DNA of 64,000 nucleotides from an uncultured Candidatus Rokubacteria bacterium (GCA_963754315.1 CAVWFS010000005.1:190384-254383); one strand, 5' to 3'. Shown: positions 3,928 to 63,849, counted from the first letter of the stretch. Numbers and translations are program-made. Notes: generated by a model not told the origin, from the letters alone.

Positions 3928-3994
3928 GACAGCATCGATCGCGGCGCGCTCGACAGCGGTGGCGACGGGGCCGACGATCTTGAGATCGATCGGT

Positions 3995-28220: not shown

Positions 28221-28981
28221 CATCGGCCGCCGTCGATCCTCGAAACTTGAGCCGCCGTCTGGTGGCGGAAGGCGCGGGCACGGCGTTGCTGCTGGCCGCC
28301 GTCGTCGGATCGGGGATCATGGGTGAGCGGTTGGCCGGCGGCAACGTCGCCGTCGCCCTGCTCGCCAACACGCTCGCCACTGGCGCGGCGCTCGTCGCTC
28401 TCATCCTGACCTTCGGACCAATCTCCGGAGCCCACTTCAACCCCGCGGTGACCTTGGCCGACGCCTCCCAGGGAGGCCTGCCGTGGCGCGATGTCCCACC
28501 CTATCTCGCCGCCCAGGTGCTCGGAGCCTTCGCCGGGGTGGCCGCGGCCCACCTCATGTTCGGCGAGCCACTGTACTTCGCGTCTCGCCATGCGCGCGCG
28601 GGAGCGGCCCAGGCGTTCAGTGAGTTCGTGGCGACCTTCGGCCTGCTGGCCGTGATCTGGGGCTGCGTACGATCACGGGCTTCCGTGGTGGCATTCGCCG
28701 TCGCCGCGTACATCACCGCGGCGTACTGGTTCACGGCGTCCACCTCCTTCGCAAACCCGGCGGTCACGCTGGCCCGCTCGGCGAGCGACACCTTCGCGGG
28801 GATCCGCCCGGCAGATGCGCCGCTCTTCATCGTGGCTCAGCTCGCCGGCGCGGGGGCGGCCACCGCGCTGTTCCGCTGGCTGGTGCCGGCGCTGCCGACA
28901 GTCGCGTCAGCGGTGACCGTGCCGCCCGCTCTGGCCGACGACCGCGACGTACCCGCGGCACGGGCCAACCGTACGCGATGA
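28217..28981 (+). CDS. MIP-family aquaglyceroporin (AqpS/GlpF-like arsenite channel)
   Basis: Two NPA boxes (HFNPAVT, FANPAVT), six TM segments, located in the ars operon. Confidence 0.85.
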   Translation: MTSAAVDPRNLSRRLVAEGAGTALLLAAVVGSGIMGERLAGGNVAVALLANTLATGAALVALILTFGPISGAHFNPAVTLADASQGGLPWRDVPPYLAAQVLGAFAGVAAAHLMFGEPLYFASRHARAGAAQAFSEFVATFGLLAVIWGCVRSRASVVAFAVAAYITAAYWFTASTSFANPAVTLARSASDTFAGIRPADAPLFIVAQLAGAGAATALFRWLVPALPTVASAVTVPPALADDRDVPAARANRTR

Positions 28982-29015
28982 CTCTCCCAGGCCCATCGGC
29001 TCGATTCAGGAGGCT

Positions 29016-31319
29016 ATGGCGATGAACATTCGACGCAACACGACAGAGAACCCAGGGCTGCCCATCGCCGTCATCGGCGCGGGACCGATCGGGCTGGCCG
29101 CCGCCGCACACCTTGCGTCCCGGGGCCTGCCCTTCGTTGTCCTCGAGGCTGGTCAGTCGGTCGGCGCCCATGTGAGCGCGTGGAGCCACGTGCAGGTCTT
29201 CTCCCCCTGGCGGTACAACATCGATGCAGCGGCCGGAGCCATGCTCAAGGCAGCCGGCTGGAAGGAGCCGGATCGCGACGTGCTGCCCACTGGCGGCGAG
29301 CTAGTGGCGGAATACCTCCGCCCCCTCGGAGAGCTTCCCCAGATTGCTCCGCACGTGCGCCTGGGCACACGTGTCCTCGCCGTCGCTCGCGCCGGCTACG
29401 ACAAGATGAAGACAGCAGGGCGCGACCAGGCGCCCTTCGAGCTGCGCGTCCACTCCTTCGCCGGTGAGGAGAGGCAGCTCGCGCGGGCCGTCATCGATGC
29501 GTCGGGCACGTATGCGGTCCCCAATCCGCTGGGCGCCAACGGCCTGCCTGCGATCGGCGAGTCAGAATCCGGCTCACGCGTGTTTTACGGAATCCCCGAC
29601 GTTGGCGGGGTCCACCGTGGCCGCTATGCTCGGCGCGCTATCGTGGTCGTTGGCAGTGGGCACTCCGCGTTCAACACCTTGCTCGACCTGCACGATCTCG
29701 CCCTGGCCGAAGTGGGGACAACGATCACCTGGGCCGTGCGTCGGAGCGACATCGGTGCGATGTACGGCGGCGGCGATGCCGACACGCTCCCGGCCCGAGG
29801 CAGCCTGGGCGCCCGCCTGCGCCAGCTCGTCGAGTCGGGGCGGCTGCGCCTGGTGACCGGCTTTCTGACACGCGAGCTCCGGCGTGACGCAAAGCGGGTG
29901 AGCCTTGTCGACACGCAAGGCCGGACGCTCGGCCCATTCGACGAGATCATCGCCGTGACGGGATTTCGACCGGACCTGGCCATGCTGGGCGAGCTGCGTC
30001 TTGATCTCGATCCCGCCGTGGAGAGTCCACGGGCGCTCGCGCCGCTGATCGATCCTAACGTCCACAGCTGTGGCACCGTACCGCCGCACGGTGTCGAGGA
30101 GCTGCGCCAGCCCGAGACGAACTTCTTCGTGGTGGGGATGAAGAGCTACGGACGGGCGCCGACCTTTCTCATGCTCACCGGGTACGAGCAGGTGCGCTCG
30201 GTCGTGGCCGCCCTCGCCGGCGACTGGGAGTCGGCCCGGCGCATGGAGCTGACCTTGCCGCCCACAGGCGTGTGCTCATCGACGCCAATCGCCGGGACCC
30301 TGGCCACCGCATGCTGTGACACCACGGTGGCGGCGGAGGTCGCGACAGCCGCCGCCGCGACCGGCTGCTGTACGCCCTCTCCGGCGGACGACACGTCCGG
30401 CGCATGCTGTGCACCAGCTCCGGACGCGGCCGCAAGCGCATGCTGTGCCCCCGCACCAACACTCATCCCGAGCCTAGATCAGCCGAAAGCCAAGGAGACC
30501 ACCATGGAACGGACGGACGCGATCAAGGATGTCGTCAAGGCCAAGTACGGCGCCGCCGCCCTTCGCGTGGCAAGCGGAAGCACGTCCTGCTGCGGTGGCA
30601 CCACCTCCCGCTCAACTGCGGATCCCATCACCTCCAACCTCTATGGTGAGGAGACAGCGGAGGTTCCGCCCGAGGCGCTCGCCGCCTCGCTCGGATGCGG
30701 CAATCCAACCGCGCTCGCCGAATTGCGGGCGGGCGAAGTGGTGCTGGATCTCGGCTCGGGCGGTGGCATCGACGTCTTGCTCTCCGCCAGGCGGGTCGGG
30801 CCCGAGGGCAAGGCGTACGGGCTTGACATGACCGACGAGATGCTCGCTCTGGCGCGGGAGAACCAGCGCAAAGCGGGGGTCACCAACGTCGAGTTCCTCA
30901 AGGGGGAGATCGAGCACATGCCGCTGCCGAACGAAGCCGTGGACGTGATCATCTCCAACTGCGTGATCAACCTCTCGCCGGACAAGGACGCCGTCCTGGC
31001 CGAGGCCTTCCGGGTTCTGAAGCCCGGCGGCCGGGTGGCGGTTTCCGACGTGGTAGTCCGCGGAGAGGTGCCGGCCGCCGTGCGCAAGAGCGTCGAACTC
31101 TGGATCGGCTGTGTGGCCGGCGCCCTGGAGGAATCGGAGTACCGCGCGAAGCTGCAGAAGGCGGGCTTCGAGGCGATCGACATCGAGCCGACGCGCGTCT
31201 ACAGCGGCGAGAGCGCGCGGGAGCGCTTGTCTGCCGCGGGGCTGGATGCCGAGACGATCGCGAGCGTGGAGGGCAGGTTCATCAGCGCGTTCATCCGCGC
31301 GCGCAAGCCACAGCCATGA
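29016..31319 (+). CDS. arsM: Fusion protein: FAD/NAD(P)-binding flavoprotein (ArsO/FMO-like), Cys-pair-rich linker, then As(III) S-adenosylmethionine methyltransferase ArsM
   Basis: N-terminal part has AVIGAGPIGLAAA and VVVGSGHSAFN dinucleotide folds. The linker has four CC dyads. The C-terminal part has the four conserved ArsM cysteine contexts (SCCGG, LGCGNP, ISNCVINL, WIGCVAGA) and the SAM motif VLDLGSGGG. Confidence 0.8.
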   Translation: MAMNIRRNTTENPGLPIAVIGAGPIGLAAAAHLASRGLPFVVLEAGQSVGAHVSAWSHVQVFSPWRYNIDAAAGAMLKAAGWKEPDRDVLPTGGELVAEYLRPLGELPQIAPHVRLGTRVLAVARAGYDKMKTAGRDQAPFELRVHSFAGEERQLARAVIDASGTYAVPNPLGANGLPAIGESESGSRVFYGIPDVGGVHRGRYARRAIVVVGSGHSAFNTLLDLHDLALAEVGTTITWAVRRSDIGAMYGGGDADTLPARGSLGARLRQLVESGRLRLVTGFLTRELRRDAKRVSLVDTQGRTLGPFDEIIAVTGFRPDLAMLGELRLDLDPAVESPRALAPLIDPNVHSCGTVPPHGVEELRQPETNFFVVGMKSYGRAPTFLMLTGYEQVRSVVAALAGDWESARRMELTLPPTGVCSSTPIAGTLATACCDTTVAAEVATAAAATGCCTPSPADDTSGACCAPAPDAAASACCAPAPTLIPSLDQPKAKETTMERTDAIKDVVKAKYGAAALRVASGSTSCCGGTTSRSTADPITSNLYGEETAEVPPEALAASLGCGNPTALAELRAGEVVLDLGSGGGIDVLLSARRVGPEGKAYGLDMTDEMLALARENQRKAGVTNVEFLKGEIEHMPLPNEAVDVIISNCVINLSPDKDAVLAEAFRVLKPGGRVAVSDVVVRGEVPAAVRKSVELWIGCVAGALEESEYRAKLQKAGFEAIDIEPTRVYSGESARERLSAAGLDAETIASVEGRFISAFIRARKPQP

Positions 31320-33309: not shown

Positions 33310-33579
33310 ATGCCCGACGAGTCTGCCCTTCGAGAGAAAGCTCGAGAAGCAATCCGGAGCGGTAAGCTGCCGATGCGCCCGCCCGATCGGACGTGGGGAG
33401 GTCCAGGTGTCGGGATCCCGTGCACGGTCTGCGGCCTGCCCGTGACGAAGCAGCAGATGGCGATCGAGATTCAGTTCAGCTACGACGGCGCGAGCCCACG
33501 ATTGGACAAGTTTGATGTCCACGTGCGGTGCTTCGCGGCGTGGGAGTTTGAGCGGGTCACGCTCGGGGGCGAGCGCTAA
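33310..33579 (+). CDS. Hypothetical small protein with CxxC motif
   Basis: 89-aa ORF (PCTVCGLP...). No recognised family. Confidence 0.35.
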   Translation: MPDESALREKAREAIRSGKLPMRPPDRTWGGPGVGIPCTVCGLPVTKQQMAIEIQFSYDGASPRLDKFDVHVRCFAAWEFERVTLGGER

Positions 33580-33630
33580 CCTGCCGACGATGTTGCCGCG
33601 GCCCTTCTGAGCCTCCTGCCGGGCTCGGTC

Positions 33631-34392
33631 ATGCCTCGCAGCGCGACCGGACGACGGTTCTCACCTACGCTGCGCTCCTCGTCATCGCCGCCGCGGCCTG
33701 GGGCCAGGTTCTCTGGTCAGCCTCGGCCCACGATGACATGAGCGGCATGGACATGCCGCCGACCGTTGCTGACGGTCTCCTCTACGTGGCGAACTGGACG
33801 GTCATGATGACGGCCATGATGCTGCCGAGCGCGATGCCCATGATCGCGCTCTACGCCGCCACGCAGCGGGCTGAGCCAAGTGCGGTGGCGAGGGCAGCGG
33901 CGGTGGCGCGGTTCACGCTCGTGTATCTCGGGCTCTGGGCCCTGACGGGCATACCGATCTACATCGGCAGCGTGACCCTCGGGCGCTTCTCCAGGGCGCT
34001 TCCCTATGGAGTCGCGCTCGCGCTCGTCGCCGCCGGCGTCTTTCAGCTCACACCGCTCAAGCAGATCTGTCTGCGCAACTGCCGCAGCTCCGCTCGGATT
34101 CCTCCTCGGCCACTGGCGGCCGGGCCTACGGGGTAGCCTCGCGATGGGTTGGGCGCACGCGGTATACTGCTTGGGCTGCTGCTGGGCGTTGATGGTCGTC
34201 CTGGTCGCCGCCGGAGCCATGGGTCTTCCCTGGGTCCTGCTCATTGCAGCGGTGGTCGCGGCGGAGAAGCTGGCGCCGCGCGGAGAGTGGGTTGCGCGAG
34301 CTACCGGGCTCGCGCTGATACTCCTGGGCGTGGCCGTCGCCCTGCGGCCAGACCTGGCGATGGTCCTGCGGGCGAGCGGCCATTCCATGTAA
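33631..34392 (+). pseudogene. DUF2182 family metal-binding membrane protein, two apparent frameshifts (~33645 and ~34089)
   Basis: Family-typical segments lie in three frames: MPRSATGRR; then VLTYAALLVIAAAAW...MDMPP...LTPLKQICLRNCRS; then PLGFLLGHWRPG...YCLGCCWALM. Confidence 0.7.
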
Positions 34393-34417
34393 CAGAGTGA
34401 GGCAACGGAGAGACGTC

Positions 34418-35071
34418 ATGGCGAATGTTCAGTGGCGGATCAACGGGGACTACTTTGAGGCGTGCAGTTGTGACTTCGTGTGTCCCTGCCCGACCTCGGG
34501 GCTGGCCGCATCGCCGACCAAGGGGGCCTGCGACGCGGGCCTCGTGTTCCAGGTGAGCCGGGGCCAGTACGGTAGCACCACGCTCGACGGCCTGAGCTTT
34601 GCCGTCCTGCTGCACACGCCCGGCCCGATGATCGCGGGCAACTGGACCGTTGGTCTCGTCTTGGACGAGCGCGGCTCACACGAGCAGCGCGAGGCGCTCA
34701 CTGCGATCGCCAGCGGTCAGGCGGGCGGGCCCATGGCCGCCCTCGCTCCGTTGATCGGCCGTTTCGGCGGCGCCGAGCCAAAGCCGATAACCATCACCAA
34801 GGACGGCATGCGCCGATCGGTCTCGATCCCGGGCATGCTCGATATCGCCATCGAGGGCGTCGCCGGCGCCAACCCGGGCGAGCCGGTCTACTTCGACAAT
34901 GTCGGCCACCCGGCCGCCTCCCGACTGGCGCTGGCCAAGGCATCCCGCGGCGACATGCACGGCTTCGGGATCGCGTGGGACGAAATGTCGGGCCGCAACG
35001 CGGTTACTCGAGCCGCGTCAAGGTCACGTCGAGGACACGCACGTCGCCGTCGGCCCGTCGCCACTGAATGA
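34418..35071 (+). CDS. DUF1326 domain protein
   Basis: WRINGDYFEACSCDFVCPCPTSG and SGQAGGPMAALAPLIG match the DUF1326 pattern. This is the usual partner of DUF2182. The C-terminal tail overlaps the convergent gene and may be extended artificially. Confidence 0.75.
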   Translation: MANVQWRINGDYFEACSCDFVCPCPTSGLAASPTKGACDAGLVFQVSRGQYGSTTLDGLSFAVLLHTPGPMIAGNWTVGLVLDERGSHEQREALTAIASGQAGGPMAALAPLIGRFGGAEPKPITITKDGMRRSVSIPGMLDIAIEGVAGANPGEPVYFDNVGHPAASRLALAKASRGDMHGFGIAWDEMSGRNAVTRAASRSRRGHARRRRPVATE

Positions 35072-36066
35072 GGATGGGACTCTGGTACGTGCCTTCCACG
35101 GGCCTGGCCGGGGCGTCCCCGCGCTCGGCCACGAGAACGCTGATGGCCCGCCGGATCCGAAGCATGTGGGCGACCGGCACGGCCACCGTGCGTGCGAGAA
35201 GCCGCTCCACGAGTGAATCCTGAAGGCCGAGCGTATCCAGGCCCGAGTTCAGCATCCGCACGAGGTCGTAGCGGGCGTAGCCGAGCGCCTTGGCCGGGAC
35301 GGCGCGGGGATTGGCGAGGAGGTGGCGGTACTCCTCGGCCATGAACCGCAGTGGGTCGCGCAGCACGGCGGCGAGATCGTACTTCATGAGGAGAGTCTCG
35401 AATTCGTTGATGGTCAGCGCCGCATCACGCTCCCCTCCCTCGAGGGCAATGCGGAGGCGGCCCCTCTCGATGCCCGCCTGGGCCACGAAGTCGGTGAGCT
35501 GGTCGTACAGTCCGAGCTTGGTGTCTTTGAGATTGACGGAATCGATGGGATGTCCCGACATGGGCACCCGCAGTCGCGTTCGCGCCACCGTCATTTCGCG
35601 ATGGAATCCGATCAGGCGCGTCAGCCGCTGACGCGGCCGCCCACGGGTGATCCCGTCCAGATCGACGAAGCAGACGACCTCGCCGGTCCGATTCGGATGC
35701 GTCACGCAGGGCCGGAGCCCGCCCGCGATGAAGGCCAGATGAGAATCCCCGTTGCGGGGCTCCACCGCCCGCTGAGCCGCGTCGAGATCCTGCCGGAATT
35801 CCAGCCAGTCGTGCGCATAGCCGGCGTCTTCGGGGAAGATCCGGCGCAAGGCCTCGACGTAGGCTGAGACCTGCCCCGGCCCGAGACGCGTCAGCAAGCC
35901 GACGGTCGAGGAAGCCGGCCGTCGTGTGCGGCGACCAGTAGAGGCAGCGCGGATACTCGGCCAGGGCCTCACGCTGGTCCGCTCCCAGCCGCGATCTCAA
36001 CTCGACCACGTCGAAACGGGCGCGGGCAGAGACGGCGAGGGTCAGGTCGAGGAGATCGGAAGCCAC
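35004..36066 (-). CDS. Hypothetical protein with YjbQ/UPF0047-like segments, apparent frameshift near 35902
   Basis: The N-terminus of ORF 35425..36066 (..LYWSPHTTAGFLDR) continues in ORF 35004..35972 (LLTRLGPGQVSAYVEAL...). GTG 36066 is preceded by GGGGAGGG. Confidence 0.5.
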
Positions 36067-36109
36067 CGCCCTCCCCGTATGGCCTCGCGCATCACGAGGC
36101 GGCGACCGC

Positions 36110-36850
36110 CTACGGCGTCGGACGCTGGCCGAGCGGCGTTCCCACGACCACCACCAGGCGCAGAAACGCCAACACCTTGATGGCGAGCCACGACGGATCC
36201 AGCTCCGATCGGCGCAGACTGAACTTGGGGGAACGCGGAAAGGCGTGGTGGTTATTGTGCAGGCTCTCGCCCCCCGTCAGCCAGGCCAGGACGCGGGAAT
36301 TGTACGCGGTGTTGCCGAAATTCTGGGCGCCACGCCAATGACCCAGCCCGTTAATCAATGGCGCCAGCACAAACATGTAGAGGATTCCGTGCCCGATCAT
36401 GGCCACCGGGCCCTGCCACCAGCCGATGGCCAGGCTCACGAGCGCAGTGCCGAGGAAGAGTCCCGTCCACCCCCAGGAAAAGATGCGCCGCTCCCACCAG
36501 TCAGCTCCGATATCCGGGGCGAACTTTCCAACGGTCTCGCCGTTGCGTGCCTCTCGAACGTAGTAGTACACGTTCCAGAGTTGCACCTTCCAGAAGCCCA
36601 GCAGGAGCGGGCTGTGAGGATCACCCTCGCGATCGGTAAAGGTGTGATGCTTGCGATGCACGGCCACCCACTGTTGCCGGGTCTGGCCGGTGAGGAGCCA
36701 CAGGACCACGCGGAAAAAGGCAGCGGCCGCCGGGCGCAGGATGAGGGAGCGGTGGGCCAGCGCACGGTGCAGGTAGATCGACGTGGCCACCGTGGCCAGC
36801 TGGGCGAGGATGAAGGCAGCAATAGCGATGATCAAGATCTGGAGACTCAA
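36110..36850 (-). CDS. Membrane acyl-CoA/acyl-lipid desaturase
   Basis: Three histidine boxes (HRALAH, HRKHH, HNNHH) and an N-terminal TM segment. Confidence 0.85.
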   Translation of the reverse strand: MSLQILIIAIAAFILAQLATVATSIYLHRALAHRSLILRPAAAAFFRVVLWLLTGQTRQQWVAVHRKHHTFTDREGDPHSPLLLGFWKVQLWNVYYYVREARNGETVGKFAPDIGADWWERRIFSWGWTGLFLGTALVSLAIGWWQGPVAMIGHGILYMFVLAPLINGLGHWRGAQNFGNTAYNSRVLAWLTGGESLHNNHHAFPRSPKFSLRRSELDPSWLAIKVLAFLRLVVVVGTPLGQRPTP

Positions 36851-36877
36851 CGGTTCACGGTCCTTTCACAGTCGCCC

Positions 36878-37780
36878 TCAGCGGGGCTCTCGCTGGTACA
36901 CGTGTTCCCGGGTACGCGGCGCATAGCCACCGTGCCCGTCACCGTGCTTGCGATTCAACACCTGGTAGAGCCCGATGGATCCCGCCTCGAAGGCGACCGC
37001 CGAGCACGTTAGGTAGAGAAGCCAGGTCCGGTATGTGCGTTCCCCGGCCACGGCCCGGGCTTCGGCGGCCCGCGCCCGCAGTCGCTCCACCCACTGCCGG
37101 CACGTGCGGGCGTAGTGCAGGCGCAGTCCCTCGACGTCGAGGATCTCCAGGCCCGCCCGCTCGATCTCGGTCAGCGTCTCGGTCAGGCCCGCCAGGTCGC
37201 CGTTTGGGAACACGTGCCGGTACAGGAACTCGGTCTGGCTGGAGGGCTTCCAGTGGTGCTCGTGGACGATCCCGTGGTTGAGATAGAGACCGCCGTCATT
37301 CAGCCGGGCCCGCACTCCCTTGAAGAAGGCCGGATAGTTTGGGATCCCGACGTGCTCGATCATGCCAACGGCGGCGATCTTGTCGTAGGTGATGTGGGCA
37401 GGCAGATCACGGTAGTCCAGAAACTCCACCCGGCAGCGACCAGCCAGGCCCTCGCGGAGAATTCGCGAGGCGGCATAGTCAGCCTGCGCCTTGGACAGGG
37501 TCACCCCGTGGGCTCTCACCTGGTAGTGCTGGGCTGCCCAGATGGCCAGGCTGCCCCAGCCACAGCCGATGTCGAGCAGGGTCTCGTCCGGCTTGAGCTC
37601 GAGCTTGCGGCAGACGAGATCGAGCTTGTCCTGCTGCGCTTGCTCGAGCTTGCCGTCGGGCTCGCGATAGTACGCGCAGGTGTAGACCATCAGCGGATCC
37701 AGGAAGAGTTCGTAGAACTCGGTGGACACGTCGTAGTGGTGAGCAATCGCGGTGGCGTCCGCGTCCCGACTTGCGTATCC
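36878..37780 (-). CDS. Cyclopropane-fatty-acyl-phospholipid synthase family SAM methyltransferase, catalytic domain only
   Basis: IAHHYDVSTEFYELFLDPLMVYTCAYY and LLDIGCGWGSLA are CMAS hallmarks. The frame is open from the upstream TGA (37781..37783). The first canonical start (GTG 37729) lies after the conserved HHYD. Confidence 0.75.
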   Translation of the reverse strand, partial: GYASRDADATAIAHHYDVSTEFYELFLDPLMVYTCAYYREPDGKLEQAQQDKLDLVCRKLELKPDETLLDIGCGWGSLAIWAAQHYQVRAHGVTLSKAQADYAASRILREGLAGRCRVEFLDYRDLPAHITYDKIAAVGMIEHVGIPNYPAFFKGVRARLNDGGLYLNHGIVHEHHWKPSSQTEFLYRHVFPNGDLAGLTETLTEIERAGLEILDVEGLRLHYARTCRQWVERLRARAAEARAVAGERTYRTWLLYLTCSAVAFEAGSIGLYQVLNRKHGDGHGGYAPRTREHVYQREPR

Positions 37781-38908
37781 TCACGACGTCGCCGCCCGCA
37801 TGCCGAAGACGTGGCCGAGCACCAGGTGCCGACGGGCGGCAGGAGTTCTCAACACGGTATGAACCAGGGCCCGCGCCATGGCGTCAGGCGTCCGGGAGAG
37901 CTGGCGGCCCAGCCAGCCGACCTCGCCCGATCCATATCGCCGAACGATCTCGCGCCCGTACCCTTCGAGCGCGGTGCCGTGCCGGAGGTGCGCTTCGACC
38001 GCCTCGGCCGCCAGCCGTCCGCTTCGAATGGCCGGCCCGATGCCCTCACCGCTCAGATCCCGCGCCAGGCCAGCGGCATCGCCGACCAGGCAGAAGCGGT
38101 CGCCGACGAGGCGCCGCGGGGCTCGGCGTCGCACGACGTAGGCGTGACCGCGAAACGGCTCGAGGCGAAGATCGTCGGGCAGGCGACCGGAGGCGCGGAG
38201 GCTTTCGACGAGGACCTGGCGCCGCCGCCGCAGATCCACCCCCGGGCCGACGACGCATCCGACTCCGACGTTCAGCACGTCGCCCTTCGGGAAGTACCAG
38301 CCGTAGCCTCTCAGGTCTCGCTCGACATAGAGCTCAGGAGCGTGCCAGGTAGCCCCGAGAGCCGCGATGCGATGCGCGCAGAGGCGCGTCTCGCTCTCTT
38401 GCGCGACGATCACCTCTTCCTCGGAGGAGACGCTGCCCAGGGCCAGGGCGACCGGACAACGGTGGCCGCCAGCCCCGATGACGATGGGAGCGGTGAAGAG
38501 ACCGGCCTCGCTCAGAATCTGGACCTCCGTCTTCGTGGCCGTCACGGAGGTCACGCGGGCGCCTTCACGCACGTCGACCCCAGCCCCCCGGGCGCGCTCG
38601 AGCAAGTGGTGGTCGAACTCGCGCCGGAGGATTCCATAGCTGGCCGGTCCTCCCCAGCGGGTCTCGTGTCGCGCTCCGTCGAACTCGAACCGACAGGCCG
38701 CGAAGGCCTGGATGGTGGCCGGATATGTCGCCGGGTTGACCTCGGCATCCGCGAGCGCCTCGAGCGTGACCCAACCCGCACAGACCTTGGGGCGCGGAAA
38801 ATGGGCGGCGTCGAGGAGGAGTAGCCGCAGTCCCGCCCCGGCAAGCGTCCAGGCGGCCGTGCTCCCGCCCGGTCCGCCGCCGACGATGATGACGTCGTAG
38901 CGCGTCAC
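37781..38908 (-). CDS. Geranylgeranyl-reductase family FAD-dependent oxidoreductase
   Basis: YDVIIVGGGPGGSTAA, KVCAGWV and LVGDAAGL motifs. GTG start lies 1 nt after the upstream stop. Confidence 0.8.
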   Translation of the reverse strand: MTRYDVIIVGGGPGGSTAAWTLAGAGLRLLLLDAAHFPRPKVCAGWVTLEALADAEVNPATYPATIQAFAACRFEFDGARHETRWGGPASYGILRREFDHHLLERARGAGVDVREGARVTSVTATKTEVQILSEAGLFTAPIVIGAGGHRCPVALALGSVSSEEEVIVAQESETRLCAHRIAALGATWHAPELYVERDLRGYGWYFPKGDVLNVGVGCVVGPGVDLRRRRQVLVESLRASGRLPDDLRLEPFRGHAYVVRRRAPRRLVGDRFCLVGDAAGLARDLSGEGIGPAIRSGRLAAEAVEAHLRHGTALEGYGREIVRRYGSGEVGWLGRQLSRTPDAMARALVHTVLRTPAARRHLVLGHVFGMRAATS

Positions 38909-38909
38909 C

Positions 38910-39311
38910 TCAGCCTCGCCAAAGGGTCAGGAGGATTCGCAGGCGGTCGCCGACGGACAGGCGAATCTCTTCCATCGCGTCGGCAATGTTCATGACGTGA
39001 AACAAGTCCCCTTCGAGGTCGATCGCGCCCTCGACGTAGGCCTCGGCGAAGTTGAGCGGCGTGGGGTCGCGAATGAGACGTATGAATGCTTCCGAGCTAT
39101 GGACGACAGCCGTGCACACGGGATCGCCATGGCCCAGCACGACGCACGTGCCGTCCCACAGACGGAACGCGCAGCCTGTCGTCACGCGACCGAAGATGTG
39201 GCGCAGGACCTCGGCGGCTCGTCGCGAGGTGGTGCGCCGTGGTAGAGGCATCATCGCGGCGCACCCGGGGCCCAATCGGACAGCCAATGAGCCGAACAGG
39301 GGCGAGCGCAT
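38910..39311 (-). CDS. N-terminal domain of a cyclopropane-fatty-acid-synthase-like protein, encoded as a separate ORF
   Basis: FRLWDGTCVVLG...AFIRLIRDPTPLNFAEAYVEGAIDLEGDLFHVM parallels the non-catalytic N-terminal region of Cfa (..GESYMDGWWECDRLDMFF..). Confidence 0.6.
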   Translation of the reverse strand: MRSPLFGSLAVRLGPGCAAMMPLPRRTTSRRAAEVLRHIFGRVTTGCAFRLWDGTCVVLGHGDPVCTAVVHSSEAFIRLIRDPTPLNFAEAYVEGAIDLEGDLFHVMNIADAMEEIRLSVGDRLRILLTLWRG

Positions 39312-39330: not shown

Positions 39331-39396
39331 CTACCGGGTGAACGACAGCGGATCGAAAACGGCGTAGACGAACCTGGCGAACGGACGAGCCGTCAT
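39331..39396 (-). CDS. Possible 21-aa leader ORF downstream of the riboswitch
   Basis: ATG 39396 follows a G-rich SD-like tract (GAGGGGGGACCAGGG). Encodes MTARPFARFVYAVFDPLSFTR. No homology evidence. Confidence 0.2.
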   Translation of the reverse strand: MTARPFARFVYAVFDPLSFTR

Positions 39397-39430
39397 CCCT
39401 GGTCCCCCCTCGAAGACCGGTTCAGCTGAT

Positions 39431-39587
39431 GCGCTCGGGTCGGTCTCCTGGCTTCCGGATCGTCCTACTCCCCGTGCCTTCCCAGCCCAACGCCAGTGGC
39501 ACTCTCGGGTTTCGTGCCCGGTTACAGTGACGGGGTCGCGGCGGATTCGCACCGCCTTCCCTGGGCCCTCATGGGCACCTCGAGCGC
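39431..39587 (-). promoter_or_regulatory. Cobalamin (B12) riboswitch
   Basis: The minus strand reads GCGCTCGAGGTGCCC..CAGGGAAGGCGGTGCGAATCCGCCGCGACCCCGTCACTGTAACCGGG..GCCACTGGCG..GGGAAGGC..GGAAGCCAGGAGACCGACCCGAGCGC. It has the conserved core, a B12 box (AAGCCAGGAGACCGACC) and closing P1 pairing GCGCTCG/CGAGCGC. Confidence 0.8.
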
Positions 39588-39672
39588 GACAACGCGATGA
39601 CACTAGCAGAGCCCTCGGGGTCCTCGCAACATGAATGCGTCACTCCGGTCTCGCGGTGGTGTCGGGAGAAGT

Positions 39673-39771
39673 TCAAAAGGCGCGGTTCAGTTCACCCGGC
39701 TTGCGCATCATCTTCTCGACCTCGGCGATCCTTGAGCGCGAAACGTTTCTGGCCGAGGACAGATGGTCCAT
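39673..39771 (-). CDS. Small ORF (32 aa) resembling a fragment of an HTH antitoxin/regulator
   Basis: ATG is preceded by GAGGAG. Encodes MDHLSSARNVSRSRIAEVEKMMRKPGELNRAF (the VSRSRI.E.E pattern of XRE-type helices). Too short for a full domain. Confidence 0.2.
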   Translation of the reverse strand: MDHLSSARNVSRSRIAEVEKMMRKPGELNRAF

Positions 39772-40130
39772 GTGCTGCTCCTCAAGGCGGATCTACTCGC
39801 GGGCGCTACTCCTCCAGCCACACCCCATTTGTCCGCAACGAGCGCGAGCAGGTCGTATCGATTCCATGCGAGCGTGGCGCGTTCGTGCTCCGGGGCCTCG
39901 TGGAGAACTGGGTAATTTCATGCTTGTGAGATTCGACCAACTTGCCGATGCTTCAGCGATGGATGGCCACCGAGCGAGATGACGTGCTCGCCGGCCATCG
40001 CGGCGTAGATTCATGCCCTCGTGGCCTGGCTGCCCATCCCCTGGGCATCGCGGCCGACTGTGTTGCGATTCCTACATTAGCTTCAGGCCTCAGGGCGTGC
40101 GTGGACCGTCAATGAGGCCAAAGGCGCTCG

Positions 40131-40539: not shown

Positions 40540-41388
40540 TCACGACGGTGGCGCCTGAGTCCCCTGGGGTTGGAGGTCGGCGCCGACCTCGGACGGGTTC
40601 GGGGGTTCGACGAGCTGGATGGTCTCTTCCTGGGGCGACTGCGGCTGGCCACCGCCTTGGCGGGCGCGGAAGCGGATTTGAGGCAGGCGCGCGACGGCTT
40701 GGCGGAGGGCTTGCTCCCAACGGACGCCGATCTTCACGAGGTCAGGGTCGCCCGCCGGGAACCGGCGCTGCCGGGTGATCTCGAGCTCGTCCGCCCCGTA
40801 GGCCAGGAGATCGATTGGTGGTCCCACCGTCACATTCGAGCGCATGGTGGAATCGAGGGAGAGCAGCGCGTACTTCGAGGCCTCCTCCAGGGTCGTCCTC
40901 TCGAAGCGGATTCCGCGATCGAGGATCGGGCGGCCGTACTTGGTCTCACCGATCTGCAGATACGGCGAGTCTTCGCTGGCCTGCAGCGGATTCCCCTGCG
41001 GGTAGATGATGAAGAGCCCGGGAGTCTCTCCGCGCACTTGCCCTCCCAGGATCAGATTCACGTTGAACTTGAACTCGTCGCGCTCGAGCGCGTCCCTGTC
41101 CATGGCGGAGACGCGCCGAACCTGCTCGCCGATCACGCGCGCCGCGTCGTAGAGGGACGGGGCCTGGGCCAGGCCCTTGGCCTGGTCGAAGTCGCGCCGC
41201 AAGAGCGTGATGATCGACTGGGTGCAGGAGAGGCTTCCACTACTCAGCAGGACGAAGACTCGCTCCCCTGGCTGGACGAAGATGTGCATCTTCCGGGAGA
41301 CGTTCACTTGATCGTGACCAGAATTGGTACGCGAATCGGAGGCCATGACCAGCCCGTGGCGCGTCCAGATGCCCACACAGTAGGTCAT
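40540..41388 (-). CDS. Anbu-type bacterial proteasome homologue (peptidase T1 family)
   Basis: MTYCVGI (Thr directly after Met), GLVMASDSRTNSG, and GETKYGRPILDR. Confidence 0.8.
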   Translation of the reverse strand: MTYCVGIWTRHGLVMASDSRTNSGHDQVNVSRKMHIFVQPGERVFVLLSSGSLSCTQSIITLLRRDFDQAKGLAQAPSLYDAARVIGEQVRRVSAMDRDALERDEFKFNVNLILGGQVRGETPGLFIIYPQGNPLQASEDSPYLQIGETKYGRPILDRGIRFERTTLEEASKYALLSLDSTMRSNVTVGPPIDLLAYGADELEITRQRRFPAGDPDLVKIGVRWEQALRQAVARLPQIRFRARQGGGQPQSPQEETIQLVEPPNPSEVGADLQPQGTQAPPS

Positions 41389-41507
41389 GGTGCGTCCATT
41401 CCTGCACATTCGGCGGCGGCGATCCTGACCACGAGCGGCATCTTACCAGAGGCCTCGGACCGATCTCGGCAATTGACGCGAACGCGCACCGGGCATACGG
41501 TGCCCCC

Positions 41508-42329: not shown

Positions 42330-42411
42330 GCGACGTCGAACCACTGTGACGCCGGGAAGGCTCTCGACCCATCGGCCAGCAGGTTGGACTTGCCCTAAGA
42401 CCATGATGGCC

Positions 42412-42422
42412 TCACAATGTGA
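42412..42422. promoter_or_regulatory. Possible antitoxin operator
   Basis: Palindrome TCACA-A-TGTGA immediately upstream of the Phd-like gene start. Confidence 0.25.
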
Positions 42423-42424
42423 CC

Positions 42425-42715
42425 ATGAAGGCCATCAACGTCACCGAGCTCAAGGCTCACCTGAGCAAGTACCTCCGGATGGCATCGCGTGGGGCCCGGA
42501 TACTCGTGAAGGACCGGGACGAGCCGATCGCCCAGCTCGGCCCACCCCAAGCGGCGGCGCGGTCATGGTCCGACCGCCTGGCCCAAGCCGGTCGGCTGCG
42601 GCTGGGCACGCAAGACTGGCGCAGGTTCGAGATCTCCAGGCTCGATCGGCACGTCGACATCCAGGCGTCGCTTCGTGCGGTGCGTGAGGATCCGAGTGAA
42701 GTACGTCGACGCTAG
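42425..42715 (+). CDS. Type II antitoxin, Phd/YefM family
   Basis: MKAINVTELKAHLSKYL... is the typical Phd/YefM N-terminus. The gene overlaps the downstream PIN toxin gene. Confidence 0.75.
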   Translation: MKAINVTELKAHLSKYLRMASRGARILVKDRDEPIAQLGPPQAAARSWSDRLAQAGRLRLGTQDWRRFEISRLDRHVDIQASLRAVREDPSEVRRR

Positions 42716-43112
42716 CGCCGTGCTCCGGGTCCTGTTCGCCGAGCCGGGACCCGAGGTACCGCTCGCCGCCGGCGACCGCGTTGTGTCGTCGCAACTCGTC
42801 GAGGTCGAGACGTTCCGGGCCGTCGATCGCGAGCGGCTACTCGGCAACCTCGACGATAAGCAGACAGCGACCAAACGCAAGGAGCTGGTCGACTTTCTCG
42901 CCAGGCTCGATCTGGCTCCGATCGATGGCGCGGTGATCGATCGCGCCAAGAGCTCCTTCGCCGTGAACCTCCGCGCGCTCGACGCGATTCACGTGGCAAC
43001 GGCCGAGATCCTGGCCGCCGAAGCCGAGGGCGAGCCGCTGGAATTCTGGACGCACGACGATCGTCAGGCCATCGCCGCGCTCTCGCGCGGGCTCACCGTG
43101 CGCGGAACGTGA
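42696..43112 (+). CDS. vapC: PIN-domain toxin (VapC family)
   Basis: VKYVDASAVLRVL start (GTG 42696), later LRALDAIHVATA and FWTHDDRQ. Confidence 0.8.
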   Translation: MKYVDASAVLRVLFAEPGPEVPLAAGDRVVSSQLVEVETFRAVDRERLLGNLDDKQTATKRKELVDFLARLDLAPIDGAVIDRAKSSFAVNLRALDAIHVATAEILAAEAEGEPLEFWTHDDRQAIAALSRGLTVRGT

Positions 43113-58210: not shown

Positions 58211-58978
58211 TCAAAGACCGGGGCTCTGCTGCATCATGCCGCCGTCCACGATCAGCGTGGTCGAGGTCATGTAGCTCGACTGGTCGCTGGCCAGGAAGGC
58301 CACGACGCTCCCGATCTCCTCGGGCTTGGCCATGCGCCCGATCGGGATGGCGGCGTTGAGACGCTGCATCAGGGCGGGATCTTTCATCGTGACGAGGTTG
58401 ATCGGCGTGGCCACCGCTCCGGGAGCCACACCGACGACCAGGATGTTGTGCGGCGCCAGCTCCACGCCGGCGGTGCGCGTCAGCATGCGCATGCCGCCCT
58501 TGGAGAGGCAGTAGGCGATGTTGCCGGGCATCGGCCAGTCCTCGTGGATCGAGCTGATGTTGATGATTCGCCCGCCGCCGCCCTGCTTCACCATCTGCTT
58601 GGCGGCGAGCTGGGTGCCGAAGAAGGCGCTCCTCAGGTTGATGCCGAGCACCCTCTCGTACTGCGCCTCCGTCGTGTCGAGCACGGAGGTGCGCGTCTCC
58701 ACGCCGGCGTTGTTGACCATCACGTCGAGGCGGCCAAAGCGCTTGACGGTGGCGTCGACGAGGCGCTGCAGGTCGGCCACCTTGCTGACGTCGGCGTCGA
58801 CGCCGATGACCTGGTCGCCGAGCGCGGCGACCTGCTTCTCGAGGGCCTCTGTCGCCTCCGGGTGGGCGACGTAGTCGATGACGAGGCTGGCGCCCTGGCG
58901 GGCCAGCTCGAGCACGATGGCCATGCCGATCCCGCTGTTACCGCCGGTGACGATGGCGACCTTTCCCTTGACACTCAC
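58211..58978 (-). CDS. SDR family oxidoreductase (glucose 1-dehydrogenase-like)
   Basis: TGGNSGIG, NNAG, and YCLSK (YxxxK). Confidence 0.9.
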   Translation of the reverse strand: MSVKGKVAIVTGGNSGIGMAIVLELARQGASLVIDYVAHPEATEALEKQVAALGDQVIGVDADVSKVADLQRLVDATVKRFGRLDVMVNNAGVETRTSVLDTTEAQYERVLGINLRSAFFGTQLAAKQMVKQGGGGRIINISSIHEDWPMPGNIAYCLSKGGMRMLTRTAGVELAPHNILVVGVAPGAVATPINLVTMKDPALMQRLNAAIPIGRMAKPEEIGSVVAFLASDQSSYMTSTTLIVDGGMMQQSPGL

Positions 58979-59020
58979 GGCACGTCCTCCTTGGCAGGAT
59001 GCGGGACACGCACCCCGCGG

Positions 59021-60574: not shown

Positions 60575-60686
60575 CGTCGTGTCCTCCTCAGGCCCGGCCC
60601 GCGATCAGGATGACCGACGAGCGGGCTTCGAGCCGGTACTCATTATGATCCGGCGGCAGCGGTGATAGGAGCGCCCAGGGGCTGTC

Positions 60687-63529: not shown

Positions 63530-63849
63530 CTCGAGCGAGAGCCTTTCACCTCCCGCGCGTGCGAAGACGGCGAGGGGATGGAGACGTGATTGGGTCCAGG
63601 GTCAAGCGAGCCGTCACCCCGCTGTCTTGGTGCTCGCCGGGAGTGGCGGACGCGAAAACTGCGCGCGAGATTCGGAGCCCAGAGCTCTTGAACACGAGCC
63701 AGAGCAGGACGAGGGCGAACGCCGCGGATCCCGGCACCCGCGCTCAGCAGGGCGCTGGTCCCGTCCGTCCCTGGTCCCCGTCAGTCGCATATAAGGGTTA
63801 GGCTTGGATCTTACTTGACACACAAGCTGGTTCATGGCATCCTCGGGGC

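What the first reader, a model, noticed from the sequence alone, without database searches (positions are those of the whole stretch)
36110..39311. CFA-synthase-like gene interrupted by a geranylgeranyl-reductase-family flavoprotein gene, next to a desaturase: candidate non-canonical methyl-branched lipid pathway
Three consecutive minus-strand ORFs encode (a) the non-catalytic N-terminal domain of a Cfa-like protein (38910..39311), (b) a GGR-family FAD oxidoreductase (37781..38908), and (c) the Cfa SAM-methyltransferase domain (36878..37780). The flavoprotein therefore sits exactly at the Cfa inter-domain linker. Junction 1 is TGA, 1 nt, then GTG. Junction 2 is a single in-frame TGA. The conserved IAHHYD block of the methyltransferase lies between that TGA and the first canonical start (GTG 37729), so the catalytic domain has no obvious independent initiation. 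A three-His-box desaturase follows immediately. The combination of desaturase, Cfa-type methyltransferase and flavin reductase matches the known two-step logic for 10-methyl fatty acids (BfaB/UfaA1 methylenation, then BfaA FAD-dependent reduction). Here, however, the reductase belongs to a different family and the architecture is inserted or split.
Basis: partly seen in the sequence, partly recalled or inferred. Interest (0 to 1): 0.8.

Follow-up and report, generated by a model that had tools for sequence, protein, structure and literature searches.

The report
Split methyl-branched fatty-acid operon (tmpBA type)
This is a soil-bacterium (Rokubacteria) operon for making mid-chain methyl-branched membrane fatty acids, of a kind already described, in which the methyltransferase gene is naturally split in two around its partner reductase gene; the odd "in-frame stop, no start codon" comes from a single extra base found only in this assembly.

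Summary
The four minus-strand ORFs are real: DUF7884 (Cfa N-domain), a GGR-family flavoprotein, the CMAS methyltransferase domain and a DesA-type desaturase. The "single in-frame TGA with no start" is not biology. All relatives, including 98%-identical strains, start the methyltransferase at a GTG overlapping the reductase stop (GTGA). The window carries one extra base 4-5 codons later (37769/37770), at a site where relatives read AAG or AAT.

Pairing a GGR-type reductase with a Cfa-type methyltransferase is already published as the tmpBA "ten-methyl-palmitate" operon (PMC7791843). The window's reductase is 38-40% identical to TmpA over its full length.

Three things appear to be undescribed:
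- The order N-domain | tmpA | catalytic domain, as three separate coupled genes, recurs in 38 of 80 genome loci (Rokubacteria, Binatia, Nitrospinota, Tectomicrobia). These form one clade. The cut lies at the start of the E. coli Cfa linker (residue 100/101).
- A full cobalamin riboswitch (39421-39598) plus a short uORF precedes the operon here and in a 78%-identical relative.
- A desaturase plus a YjbQ-like gene is a subclade add-on.

Verdict: a new variant of a known kind. The lipid product and TmpA activity are inferred, not shown.

The parts
39421..39598 (-). Cobalamin (B12) riboswitch aptamer, about 110 nt upstream of the first gene of the operon, on the same strand
   Evidence: Rfam RF00174: 101.4 bits against a gathering score of 31.5, E 7.6e-26, model 1-189/189, canonical B12 box. 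Conserved in L001 (93.3 bits) and in L092-L094 (99% identity). It is the only Rfam hit in the 64-kb window.
39331..39396 (-). Short uORF (21 codons, MTARPFARFVYAVFDPLSFTR) with a GAGGGGGG Shine-Dalgarno-like run immediately after the aptamer; probable expression platform
   Evidence: Read from the sequence. L001 has the same layout with a 22-codon uORF (alignment). No intrinsic terminator was found. The function is inferred by analogy with the riboswitch-controlled uORF of M. tuberculosis ppe2 (PMC11260477).
38910..39311 (-). Stand-alone N-terminal (lipid-binding/dimer) domain of a Cfa/TmpB-type methyltransferase (DUF7884). Relatives are annotated at 113-114 aa, which suggests the ATG at 39254
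   Evidence: Pfam PF25371. NCBIfam CfaB profile positions 15-82 of 393. 293 protein clusters found; the best 120 are all 112-133 aa with this domain only. The C-terminus aligns to E. coli Cfa residue 100.
37781..38908 (-). tmpA-like geranylgeranyl-reductase-family FAD protein, the putative methylene/alkene reductase
   Evidence: TIGR02032 GG-red-SF: 184.5 bits against a cut-off of 158.8. 38.5% and 39.9% identity over the full length to Marinobacter and Thiohalospira TmpA (E 2e-67). Best PDB match is 3oz2, the Thermoplasma GGR. Motifs GxGxxG, FPRxKxCAGW, GYxWxFxK...GxG and GDAAG are invariant in the family alignment.
36878..37784 (-). tmpB/bfaB-like SAM methyltransferase catalytic (CMAS) domain gene. 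The true start is the GTG at 37784, overlapping the tmpA stop (GTGA). In this window it is frameshifted after codon 4-5
   Evidence: CMAS E 7e-88. CfaB profile 98-393 of 393. 45% identity to T. curvata BfaB, 39% to Marinobacter TmpB, 37% to E. coli Cfa. All five bicarbonate ligands of E. coli Cfa are conserved. Relatives have an intact 301-aa gene.
37769..37770 (-). Single extra base (G or T of CGCAAGTCGG) that creates the apparent 'in-frame TGA, no start'
   Evidence: Alignments. L092 reads AAG-CGG; L093 and L008 read AA-TCGG. The window looks like both alleles of a G/T polymorphism written in tandem.
36110..36850 (-). Three-His-box membrane fatty-acid desaturase, DesA (delta-9) family, short form (246 aa)
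   Evidence: PF00487 E 1e-17. NF049918 DesA family: 195.8 bits, below the cut-off of 400, matching profile 5-239 of 385. Present only in a Rokubacteria subclade.
35004..36066 (-). Fifth operon gene: a 353-aa protein of unknown function (named YjbQ/UPF0047-like by JGI), broken in the window by an extra G at about 35899
   Evidence: tblastn shows it split over two frames. It is intact in L089, L090, L001 and L004. It always follows the desaturase. No Pfam or NCBIfam hit. The AlphaFold model was unusable (pLDDT 49).

Best explanation
The locus is a tmpBA-type operon for mid-chain (most likely C10) methyl-branched fatty acids in a Rokubacteria/Methylomirabilota genome. It is an evolutionary variant in which the Cfa-like methyltransferase TmpB has been split at its inter-domain linker into two genes that flank the reductase gene tmpA.

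Proposed steps:
(1) The DesA-type desaturase makes a cis-monoene on a membrane acyl chain. This is inferred, and the gene is optional because it occurs only in this subclade.
(2) The catalytic CMAS subunit, held together non-covalently with the free N-domain subunit, transfers a methyl group from SAM to the double bond and releases a methylene (or methyl-alkene) intermediate. This is shown for the homologues TmpB and BfaB and inferred here.
(3) The GGR-family flavoprotein TmpA reduces that C=C to give the saturated methyl branch. This is inferred and has never been shown for any TmpA.

The genes are separate and translationally coupled (TGA-N-GTG and GTGA). In this sublineage the operon sits behind a cobalamin riboswitch plus a short uORF, so it is probably repressed when B12 is available.

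The in-frame TGA without a start codon is a single-base insertion peculiar to this assembly, most likely a consensus error. It is not recoding.
For: Domain identities.

Homology to the published tmp/bfa enzymes: using sequences from the supplement of PMC7791843. In that paper TmpB made 10-methylene-16:0 in E. coli for 4 of 5 operons, and TmpA is described as GGR-like.

The concatenated N-domain and MT are collinear with full-length Cfa, TmpB and BfaB. The cut falls at E. coli residue 100/101, and residues 100-120 are the disordered linker. Artificially split E. coli domains stay associated (PMC9851988; alignment).

Linkage of the GGR gene with a CMAS gene holds in 77 of 80 genome loci from many phyla: 38 split and 39 fused.

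The split clade is monophyletic: MT 98/100 bootstraps; GGR 94/100 once the three loci of undetermined layout are removed. In the MT tree it is sister to actinobacterial BfaB, and the fused TmpB clade is the next relative. Both of those groups contain proven 10-methylene formers.

All 46 split loci have stop codons at both junctions and their own ATG or GTG starts. No fused protein longer than 475 aa appears among the 150 best family representatives.

Frameshift as artefact.

Riboswitch.
Against: No lipid data exist for any Rokubacterium, and the organism is uncultured.

TmpA showed no activity in E. coli or yeast (PMC7791843), so the reductase step is a hypothesis even for the founding members.

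Archaeal GGRs reduce methyl-branched internal E-alkenes but left terminal alkenes untouched (PMC8457153). Reduction of an exomethylene by a GGR fold is therefore not a given. The true substrate could be an isomeric methyl-alkene.

The five bicarbonate ligands typical of cyclopropane synthases are all conserved. Sequence alone therefore cannot exclude a cyclopropane product.

The frameshift could be a real mutation in this strain. No reads are available, and the closest contigs are 98%, not 100%, identical.
Confidence: 0.72

Rival explanations
1. The operon is what is described above, but in this particular strain it is decaying. The insertions in the methyltransferase (37769/70) and in the fifth gene (~35899) are real mutations, so the strain no longer makes the product, or makes an 18-residue-shorter enzyme from the GTG at 37729.
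For: Two of the five operon genes are disrupted near their 5' ends. A 98.7%-identical strain (L093) has lost the desaturase and the fifth gene altogether, so the module is dispensable. The window contains many long intact ORFs of up to 953 aa, so indels are not evenly dense.
Against: The window has extra bases at several other places where Illumina contigs or all relatives lack them, including inside the riboswitch at 39580 and in an unrelated PpoB2 gene. The related long 'contig_N' assemblies L092 and L093 each have their own private frame breaks. The MT insertion sits exactly on a G/T polymorphic site and reads like both alleles merged.
Confidence: 0.15
2. The split Cfa is an ordinary cyclopropane fatty-acid synthase. 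The GGR-family protein is functionally unrelated (for example a quinone or polyprenyl reductase such as MenJ) and merely sits nearby.
For: All five bicarbonate ligands of E. coli Cfa are present. The best NCBIfam profile for both halves is a cyclopropane synthase (CfaB). TmpA has never shown activity. JGI annotates some relatives as menaquinone-9 beta-reductase.
Against: The GGR-CMAS pairing is kept in 77 of 80 loci across Gammaproteobacteria, Acidobacteria, Planctomycetes, Rokubacteria, Binatia, Nitrospinota and others, through a gene fission and with stop-start overlaps. MT and GGR trees give the same split clade. The nearest experimentally tested methyltransferases (BfaB, TmpB) make methylene, not cyclopropane, products and keep the same five ligands (PMC7791843). 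The MenJ profile scores only 72 bits against a cut-off of 700.
Confidence: 0.08
3. Programmed recoding: TGA readthrough, selenocysteine or ribosomal frameshifting yields a GGR-methyltransferase fusion polypeptide.
For: In the window as given, the TGA is in frame with the CMAS domain, and no canonical start precedes the IAHHYD block. An engineered BfaA-BfaB fusion improved flux in yeast (PMC7791843), so a fusion would make functional sense.
Against: In all relatives the two genes are in different frames with a GTGA or ATGA overlap, or are 10-60 nt apart with their own ATG. The in-frame arrangement exists only in this window and is explained by one extra base. There are no fused proteins among 3673 homologues and 150 distant representatives: all are about 375 aa, with a maximum of 475.
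Confidence: 0.02

Closest known systems
tmpBA (ten-methyl-palmitate) operon of Marinobacter, Thiohalospira and Desulfobacter (Blitzblau et al. 2021, PMC7791843)
   Same: The same two enzyme families sit side by side: a Cfa-like SAM methyltransferase and a GGR-like flavoprotein. The window's GGR is 38-40% identical to TmpA over its full length, and the MT is 39% identical to TmpB. 39 fused tmpBA-type loci were recovered with the same query.
   Different: TmpB is one polypeptide and the order is B then A. Here TmpB is two genes (N-domain, catalytic domain) with tmpA between them. There are also an added desaturase, a YjbQ-like gene and a B12 riboswitch. In the MT tree the window's enzyme is closer to BfaB than to TmpB.
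bfaAB (tuberculostearic acid) operon of Actinobacteria (Machida 2017, PMC5660069; Blitzblau 2021)
   Same: Two-step logic: methylenation of a delta-9 monoene followed by flavin-dependent reduction. BfaB is the closest characterised methyltransferase (44-45% identity, sister clade).
   Different: BfaA belongs to a different flavoprotein family. There is no BfaA homologue in the window or in any of the 94 loci. BfaB is unsplit.
[quoted passage not shown] 2018, 2022; PMC9851988)
   Same: Two-domain architecture. The natural cut falls at residue 100/101, the start of the disordered linker 100-120. Laboratory-split E. coli domains stay associated. The bicarbonate ligands C139, E239, H266, I268 and Y317 are conserved.
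   Different: Cfa is a single polypeptide, has no partner reductase and makes a cyclopropane product. Identity is 37%.
Archaeal geranylgeranyl reductases (Thermoplasma 3oz2, Sulfolobus 3atq)
   Same: FAD fold and family motifs. The window's protein passes the TIGR02032 cut-off. These enzymes reduce unactivated methyl-branched C=C bonds in lipid chains (PMC8457153).
   Different: The match is only E 2e-15 to 3oz2. The window's protein has a TmpA-specific C-terminal extension and a presumed fatty-acyl rather than isoprenoid substrate. Archaeal GGRs did not reduce terminal alkenes.
Cobalamin riboswitch upstream of an ole1/COG1398 desaturase in metagenomes (Kazanov et al. 2007, PMC2211319) and the riboswitch-controlled uORF of M. 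tuberculosis ppe2 (PMC11260477)
   Same: A B12 aptamer lies in front of an operon containing a delta-9-family desaturase, and the aptamer is followed directly by an SD and a short uORF.
   Different: Here the first regulated genes are the split methyltransferase and reductase. No B12-dependent counterpart has been identified.

Membership tests
tmpBA ten-methyl-palmitate pathway | Cfa-like (PF02353) methyltransferase homologous to TmpB | tested here: met
   CMAS E 7e-88. 39% identity to Marinobacter TmpB across the domain, and the concatenated N-domain plus MT is collinear with full-length TmpB.
tmpBA ten-methyl-palmitate pathway | Adjacent GGR-like flavoprotein homologous to TmpA | tested here: met
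   38.5% and 39.9% identity, residues 1-368 of 375, E 2e-67 and 1e-60. The family search recovers Marinobacter tmpA loci.
tmpBA ten-methyl-palmitate pathway | TmpB as one polypeptide, gene order tmpB then tmpA | tested here: not met
   Three genes in the order N-domain | tmpA | catalytic domain, with stop codons at both junctions in 46 of 46 loci of the clade.
tmpBA ten-methyl-palmitate pathway | Produces 10-methylene and 10-methyl C16 fatty acids | not testable with these tools
   Needs expression and GC-MS. The organism is uncultured.
bfaAB tuberculostearic-acid pathway | BfaA-type FAD oxidoreductase next to the methyltransferase | tested here: not met
   tblastn of M. smegmatis and T. curvata BfaA gave no hit in the window or in any fetched locus.
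Canonical cyclopropane fatty-acid synthase (Cfa) | Single N+C polypeptide; bicarbonate-binding C139/E239/H266/I268/Y317; no dedicated reductase | tested here: inconclusive
   The ligands are all conserved, but they are equally conserved in the methylene-forming BfaB and TmpB. The polypeptide is split and a reductase is tightly linked.
Geranylgeranyl reductase family (TIGR02032) | Score above the curated cut-off; FAD GxGxxG; conserved Cys in the FPRxKxCAGW stretch (window residues 37-46, Cys43); YxWxFP...GxG; GDAAG | tested here: met
   184.5 bits against 158.8. The motifs are invariant in the 40-sequence alignment. PDB 3oz2 matches at E 2e-15.
Cobalamin riboswitch (RF00174) | Covariance-model score above gathering, full-length aptamer with B12 box, located 5' of and co-oriented with the regulated gene | tested here: met
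   101.4 bits against 31.5, model 1-189 of 189, AGCCAGGAGACC box, 110 nt upstream on the same strand. Conserved in L001. Ligand binding and the direction of regulation were not tested.
Programmed stop-codon readthrough / recoding | In-frame stop conserved among orthologues, with the downstream domain lacking its own start | tested here: not met
   Orthologues have the two genes in different frames with their own start codons. The in-frame state is unique to the window.

The most novel reading that the evidence does not exclude
The conserved N-domain | reductase | catalytic-domain gene order reflects an obligate three-subunit membrane complex. In it the freed N-domain docks both the methyltransferase and the GGR-type reductase, so that the alkene intermediate is channelled. 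This would explain why TmpA alone was inactive in heterologous hosts. Cobalamin-riboswitch control would mark this SAM/O2-dependent route as the 'B12-independent' member of a pair, implying an undiscovered B12-dependent way of branching or fluidising membrane lipids in these bacteria. If so, abundant uncultured soil and marine phyla (Rokubacteria, Binatia, Nitrospinota, Vicinamibacterales) would be unrecognised sources of the 10-methyl PLFA biomarkers now assigned to sulfate reducers (PMC6487957).
Probability: 0.2. Interest if true: 0.7.

Novelty: new variant of a known kind. Interest (0 to 1): 0.5.

Why it matters
10-Methyl-branched fatty acids are used as biomarkers. 10MeC16:0 is used for sulfate reducers (PMC6487957) and for Ca. 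Methylomirabilis (PMC6581649). It made up 9% of the PLFA in a forest soil (PMC6487957). The genome scan shows tmp-type gene sets in many uncultured soil and marine phyla, which would undermine those assignments if the genes are active.

The reductase step of the tmp pathway has never been demonstrated. The naturally split, tightly coupled three-gene form, together with its co-transcribed partners, gives a fresh set of constructs to test.

A gene fission exactly at a known disordered linker, with the partner enzyme's gene inserted and kept across several phyla, is a clean example of operon-level protein-complex evolution.

A B12 riboswitch in front of a lipid-modification operon extends a 2007 metagenomic hint (a desaturase behind a B12 element) and poses a concrete question: what is the B12-dependent counterpart?

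For the scan itself, the result is a caution. The most eye-catching feature, the in-frame stop, was a single-base assembly error.

Tried and rejected
- Fusion or readthrough protein: looked for single-polypeptide N-domain/GGR/MT or GGR-MT proteins among 3673 homologues and 150 distant representatives. None found.
- Selenocysteine or alternative genetic code: not pursued once the relatives showed a different frame.
- Conserved extra partner, such as a ferredoxin for the reductase: all-against-all clustering of flanking ORFs from about 80 loci found only lineage-local synteny and nothing universal. The analysis is noisy because of shadow ORFs in high-GC DNA.
- Function of the fifth gene: no Pfam or NCBIfam hit even at E 5. 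JGI names it YjbQ/UPF0047-like. The AlphaFold model had mean pLDDT 49, so no fold search was run.
- Exact-sequence look-up of the window's GGR: not on record. The nearest Illumina contig covering the methyltransferase (L091) begins about 20 nt after the GTG and just misses the insertion site.
- Whether Ca. Methylomirabilis oxyfera itself carries the cluster: could not be tested.
- Intrinsic terminator or sigma-70 promoter around the riboswitch: none found. The fold of the expression platform is not better than shuffles (z -0.46).
- Literature: no paper in the library other than PMC7791843 discusses tmpA/tmpB. None links Methylomirabilis 10-methyl acids to genes.


Full report
**1. What is in the sequence**

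- 38910..39311 (133 aa)
- 37781..38908 (375 aa)
- an open frame 36878..37780, whose first canonical start is the GTG at 37729
- 36110..36850 (246 aa)

Pfam assigns them as follows:
- DUF7884, the N-terminal domain of Cfa-like enzymes.
- FAD_binding_3 with a weak GGR_cat hit.
- CMAS at E 7e-88. The match starts at profile position 3, only five residues after the TGA.
- FA_desaturase.

NCBIfam sharpens this:
- The small ORF matches positions 15-82 of a 393-position cyclopropane-synthase profile, and the methyltransferase ORF matches positions 98-393. They are two complementary halves of one enzyme.
- The flavoprotein passes the curated cut-off of the geranylgeranyl-reductase family (TIGR02032, 184.5 against 158.8 bits).
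- The desaturase is a short DesA-family (delta-9 type) protein.

Junction 1 is TGA-G-GTG. Junction 2 is a single TGA in frame with the CMAS domain. The description is therefore accurate for this sequence.

**2. The in-frame TGA is a one-base artefact**

The GGR protein has thousands of homologues. The best are all about 375 aa, stand-alone, and come from Rokubacteria/Methylomirabilota.

Their contigs carry the same gene row DUF7884 | GGR | CMAS | desaturase in unrelated flanking contexts. In every one of them the CMAS gene is a normal 301-aa gene. Its GTG overlaps the GGR stop codon (GTGA), so the two genes are in different frames.

Alignment of the junction shows one extra base in the window, 4-5 codons after that GTG (window 37784).

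Two syntenic contigs from 98.4-98.7%-identical strains (L092, L093) pin it down:
- L092 reads CGC AAG CGG.
- L093, and the 94%-identical L008, read CGC AAT CGG.
- The window reads CGCAAGTCGG, as if both alleles of a G/T polymorphism had been written one after the other.

The extra base throws the true reading frame out. It happens to place the downstream frame in register with the GGR frame, which creates the "in-frame TGA, no start" picture.

The window has further private single-base insertions:
- An extra G at about 35899 breaks the gene after the desaturase. That gene is an intact 353-aa ORF in Illumina contigs that encode the identical desaturase.
- An extra A at 39580 is absent from an Illumina contig.
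- A PpoB2/DUF2182 gene is divided between two frames at 33552-34392.

The related long "contig_N" assemblies each have their own private frame breaks. I therefore read the frameshift as a consensus error. A real inactivating mutation in this strain cannot be excluded without reads. Programmed readthrough or a fusion protein is excluded by the comparative data:
- All 46 loci with this gene order have stop codons at both junctions and their own start codons.
- No homologue longer than 475 aa exists among the 150 best family representatives.

**3. The enzyme pair is already known: tmpBA**

A full-text search led to Blitzblau et al. 2021 (PMC7791843). Besides the actinobacterial bfaAB genes for 10-methylstearate, the paper describes a second operon, tmpBA ("ten-methyl palmitate"), from Desulfobacter, Desulfobacula, Marinobacter and Thiohalospira.
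- TmpB is Cfa-like and made 10-methylene-palmitate in E. coli for four of five operons.
[quoted passage not shown] It is the presumed reductase but was inactive in E. coli and yeast.

I compared the window with the protein sequences in that paper's supplement:
- The window's flavoprotein is 38.5% and 39.9% identical to Marinobacter and Thiohalospira TmpA over residues 1-368 of 375 (E 2e-67 and 1e-60).
- The repaired methyltransferase is 45% identical to T. curvata BfaB, 44% to M. smegmatis BfaB, 39% to Marinobacter TmpB and 37% to E. coli Cfa.

No BfaA homologue exists in the window or in any fetched locus.

**4. What is new: a conserved split with the reductase gene in the gap**

I built a profile of 40 diverse family members, including TmpA, and scanned one genome per species of GTDB. 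tblastn on the 80 best loci gave two clean architectures:
- 39 loci are fused: N-domain and CMAS in one frame (TmpB), followed by TmpA. These are Marinobacter and other Gammaproteobacteria, Vicinamibacterales and other Acidobacteria, Planctomycetes and Thermodesulfobacteriota.
- 38 loci are split in the window's order N-domain | TmpA | CMAS. These are Rokubacteria/Methylomirabilota, Binatia, Nitrospinota, Tectomicrobia and several unclassified "delta" MAGs.
- 3 loci are cut off or unlinked.

Phylogeny supports a single origin of the split:
- In neighbour-joining trees the split clade is monophyletic for the methyltransferase (98/100 bootstraps).
- It is also monophyletic for the reductase (94/100 once the three undetermined loci are removed; 17/100 with them).
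- The split methyltransferases are sister to actinobacterial BfaB, with the fused Marinobacter-type TmpB clade next. The window's enzyme is therefore bracketed by two groups with experimentally shown 10-methylene-forming activity.

The free N-domain is a sizeable protein family of its own. It has 293 clusters, and the best 120 are all 112-133 aa with DUF7884 only.

In a structure-aware alignment the cut falls at E. coli Cfa residue 100/101. Residues 100-120 are the only disordered segment of that enzyme, and N- and C-domains expressed as separate polypeptides remain associated (Hari et al., cited in PMC9851988). A functional two-piece methyltransferase is therefore plausible.

The junctions are stop-start overlaps or gaps of a few nucleotides throughout the clade. 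This points to translational coupling and probably to fixed stoichiometry. I found no description of this split arrangement in the searchable literature.

**5. Accessory parts and regulation**

The desaturase and a following 353-aa gene occur only in one Rokubacteria subclade. Both are absent from the 98.7%-identical strain L093, which lacks window 33591-36853. They are an add-on, not a core part. The 353-aa gene has no Pfam or NCBIfam hit, is named YjbQ/UPF0047-like by JGI, and gave an unusable AlphaFold model.

The 1.2-kb gap upstream of the operon contains a full-length cobalamin riboswitch, which was unexpected:
- It lies at 39421-39598 on the operon strand. RF00174 scores 101.4 bits against a gathering score of 31.5 (E 7.6e-26), with a canonical B12 box. 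It is the only Rfam match in the 64-kb window.
- The same element precedes the operon in L001 (93.3 bits). That genome's GGR is only 78% identical and its upstream neighbours are different.
- It is also present in L092-L094. 5' remnants occur in L010 and L013.
- It was not found in the other split clades or in the 20 fused loci scanned (L049-L068). The other 19 fused loci (L069-L088) were not scanned.

In both lineages the aptamer is followed directly by a purine-rich Shine-Dalgarno-like run and a 21-22-codon uORF, and then by the N-domain gene. No intrinsic terminator is present, so translational control is likely.

Two precedents exist:
- A 2007 metagenome survey found a B12 element upstream of an ole1/COG1398 desaturase. 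It proposed a pair of B12-dependent and B12-independent isozymes (PMC2211319).
- The M. tuberculosis ppe2 riboswitch controls a translated uORF that is needed for expression of the downstream gene (PMC11260477).

Why B12 should govern this operon is unexplained.

**6. Mechanism, with shown and inferred steps marked**

Shown here: domain identities, homology, gene order, coupling, clade structure and the presence of the riboswitch.

Shown elsewhere, for homologues: TmpB and BfaB convert delta-9 monoenes in phospholipids to 10-methylene acids, and split Cfa domains associate.

Inferred:
- The free N-domain and the catalytic subunit form the active methyltransferase.
- The product is a methylene or methyl-alkene at C10. 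The position depends on the monoene available.
- TmpA reduces it to a methyl branch.
- The desaturase supplies the substrate.
- B12 represses the operon.

Caveats:
- TmpA has never been active in any assay.
- Archaeal GGRs reduce methyl-branched internal E-alkenes but not terminal alkenes (PMC8457153). The real substrate may therefore be an isomerised alkene, or the enzyme may need a specific reductant.
- The five bicarbonate ligands of cyclopropane synthases are conserved here, as they are in BfaB and TmpB. Sequence alone therefore cannot exclude a cyclopropane product.

**7. Verdict**

Its most striking element, the in-frame stop, is an assembly-level single-base insertion. The interpretation as a methyl-branched-lipid pathway is supported, but it is not non-canonical in the way proposed, because it is a member of the published tmpBA kind.

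What remains noteworthy:
- An apparently undescribed split-gene variant, conserved across several phyla.
- A B12 riboswitch in front of it.
- The wide distribution of tmp-type genes in uncultured soil and marine phyla. This bears on the use of 10-methyl fatty acids as biomarkers (PMC6487957, PMC6581649).

I rate it a new variant of a known kind, of moderate interest.

Noticed in passing
window 39421-39598 (-), uORF 39331-39396 (-): A full-length cobalamin riboswitch followed by an SD and a 21-codon uORF lies directly upstream of the operon. It is conserved in L001 and L092-L094, with remnants in L010 and L013. It is absent from other split clades and from the fused tmpBA loci tested. Why B12 should regulate this operon is unexplained.
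   Followed up: partly
window ~35899 (gene 35004-36066, -): The 353-aa YjbQ-like gene downstream of the desaturase is split over two frames by an extra G (GTCGGCTTG against GTCG-CTTG). It is intact in Illumina contigs L089 and L090 and in L001 and L004.
   Followed up: yes
window 33552-34392 (+): A PpoB2/DUF2182 copper-chaperone-like gene is divided between two overlapping frames (Pfam profile 2-107 in one ORF, 98-187 in the other). This is another probable single-base indel. A DUF1326-like ORF follows at 34397-35071.
   Followed up: partly
window 39580-40007: A cluster of about 13 single extra bases in the window relative to both L092 and L093, in the non-coding stretch upstream of the riboswitch. 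One of them (39580) lies inside the aptamer and is also absent from Illumina contig L094. It suggests insertion-type consensus errors, or a hypervariable spacer.
   Followed up: partly
L093 6459-6538 against window 36853-33591: A 98.7%-identical strain lacks a 3.2-kb block containing the desaturase, the YjbQ-like gene, DUF1326 and PpoB2. The block is therefore strain-variable.
   Followed up: no
window 28917-31319 (+): An 800-aa ORF combines an N-terminal FAD/NAD(P) oxidoreductase region (Pyr_redox_3/DAO, residues 50-364) with a C-terminal class-I SAM methyltransferase (Methyltransf_31/25/11, residues 600-750). This is a flavoprotein-methyltransferase fusion unrelated to Cfa, 5 kb from the operon.
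   Followed up: no
window 3998-5641 (-) and 2176-4113 (-): A formate-dehydrogenase-alpha-like ORF starts at Molybdopterin profile position 100 and lacks the usual N-terminal Fe-S domains. It sits next to a NuoF-like gene. It may be truncated or frame-broken.
   Followed up: no
window 58211-63545 (-): Three long ORFs (270, 528 and 953 aa) have third-position GC of 0.92-0.97, clearly above the 0.78-0.88 of the rest of the window.
   Followed up: no
L015, L024, L017 (record titles): Contigs carrying Rokubacteria-type split clusters (64-68% identity to the window's GGR) are deposited in MAGs labelled Nitrosotalea, Nitrosocosmicus (archaea) and Eisenbacteria. This is probably binning contamination.
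   Followed up: no
window ~42400-43110 (+); L092 212-899: A PIN-domain toxin and PhdYeFM-type antitoxin pair and a proteasome-like gene (40540-41409, -) lie upstream of the operon.
   Followed up: no
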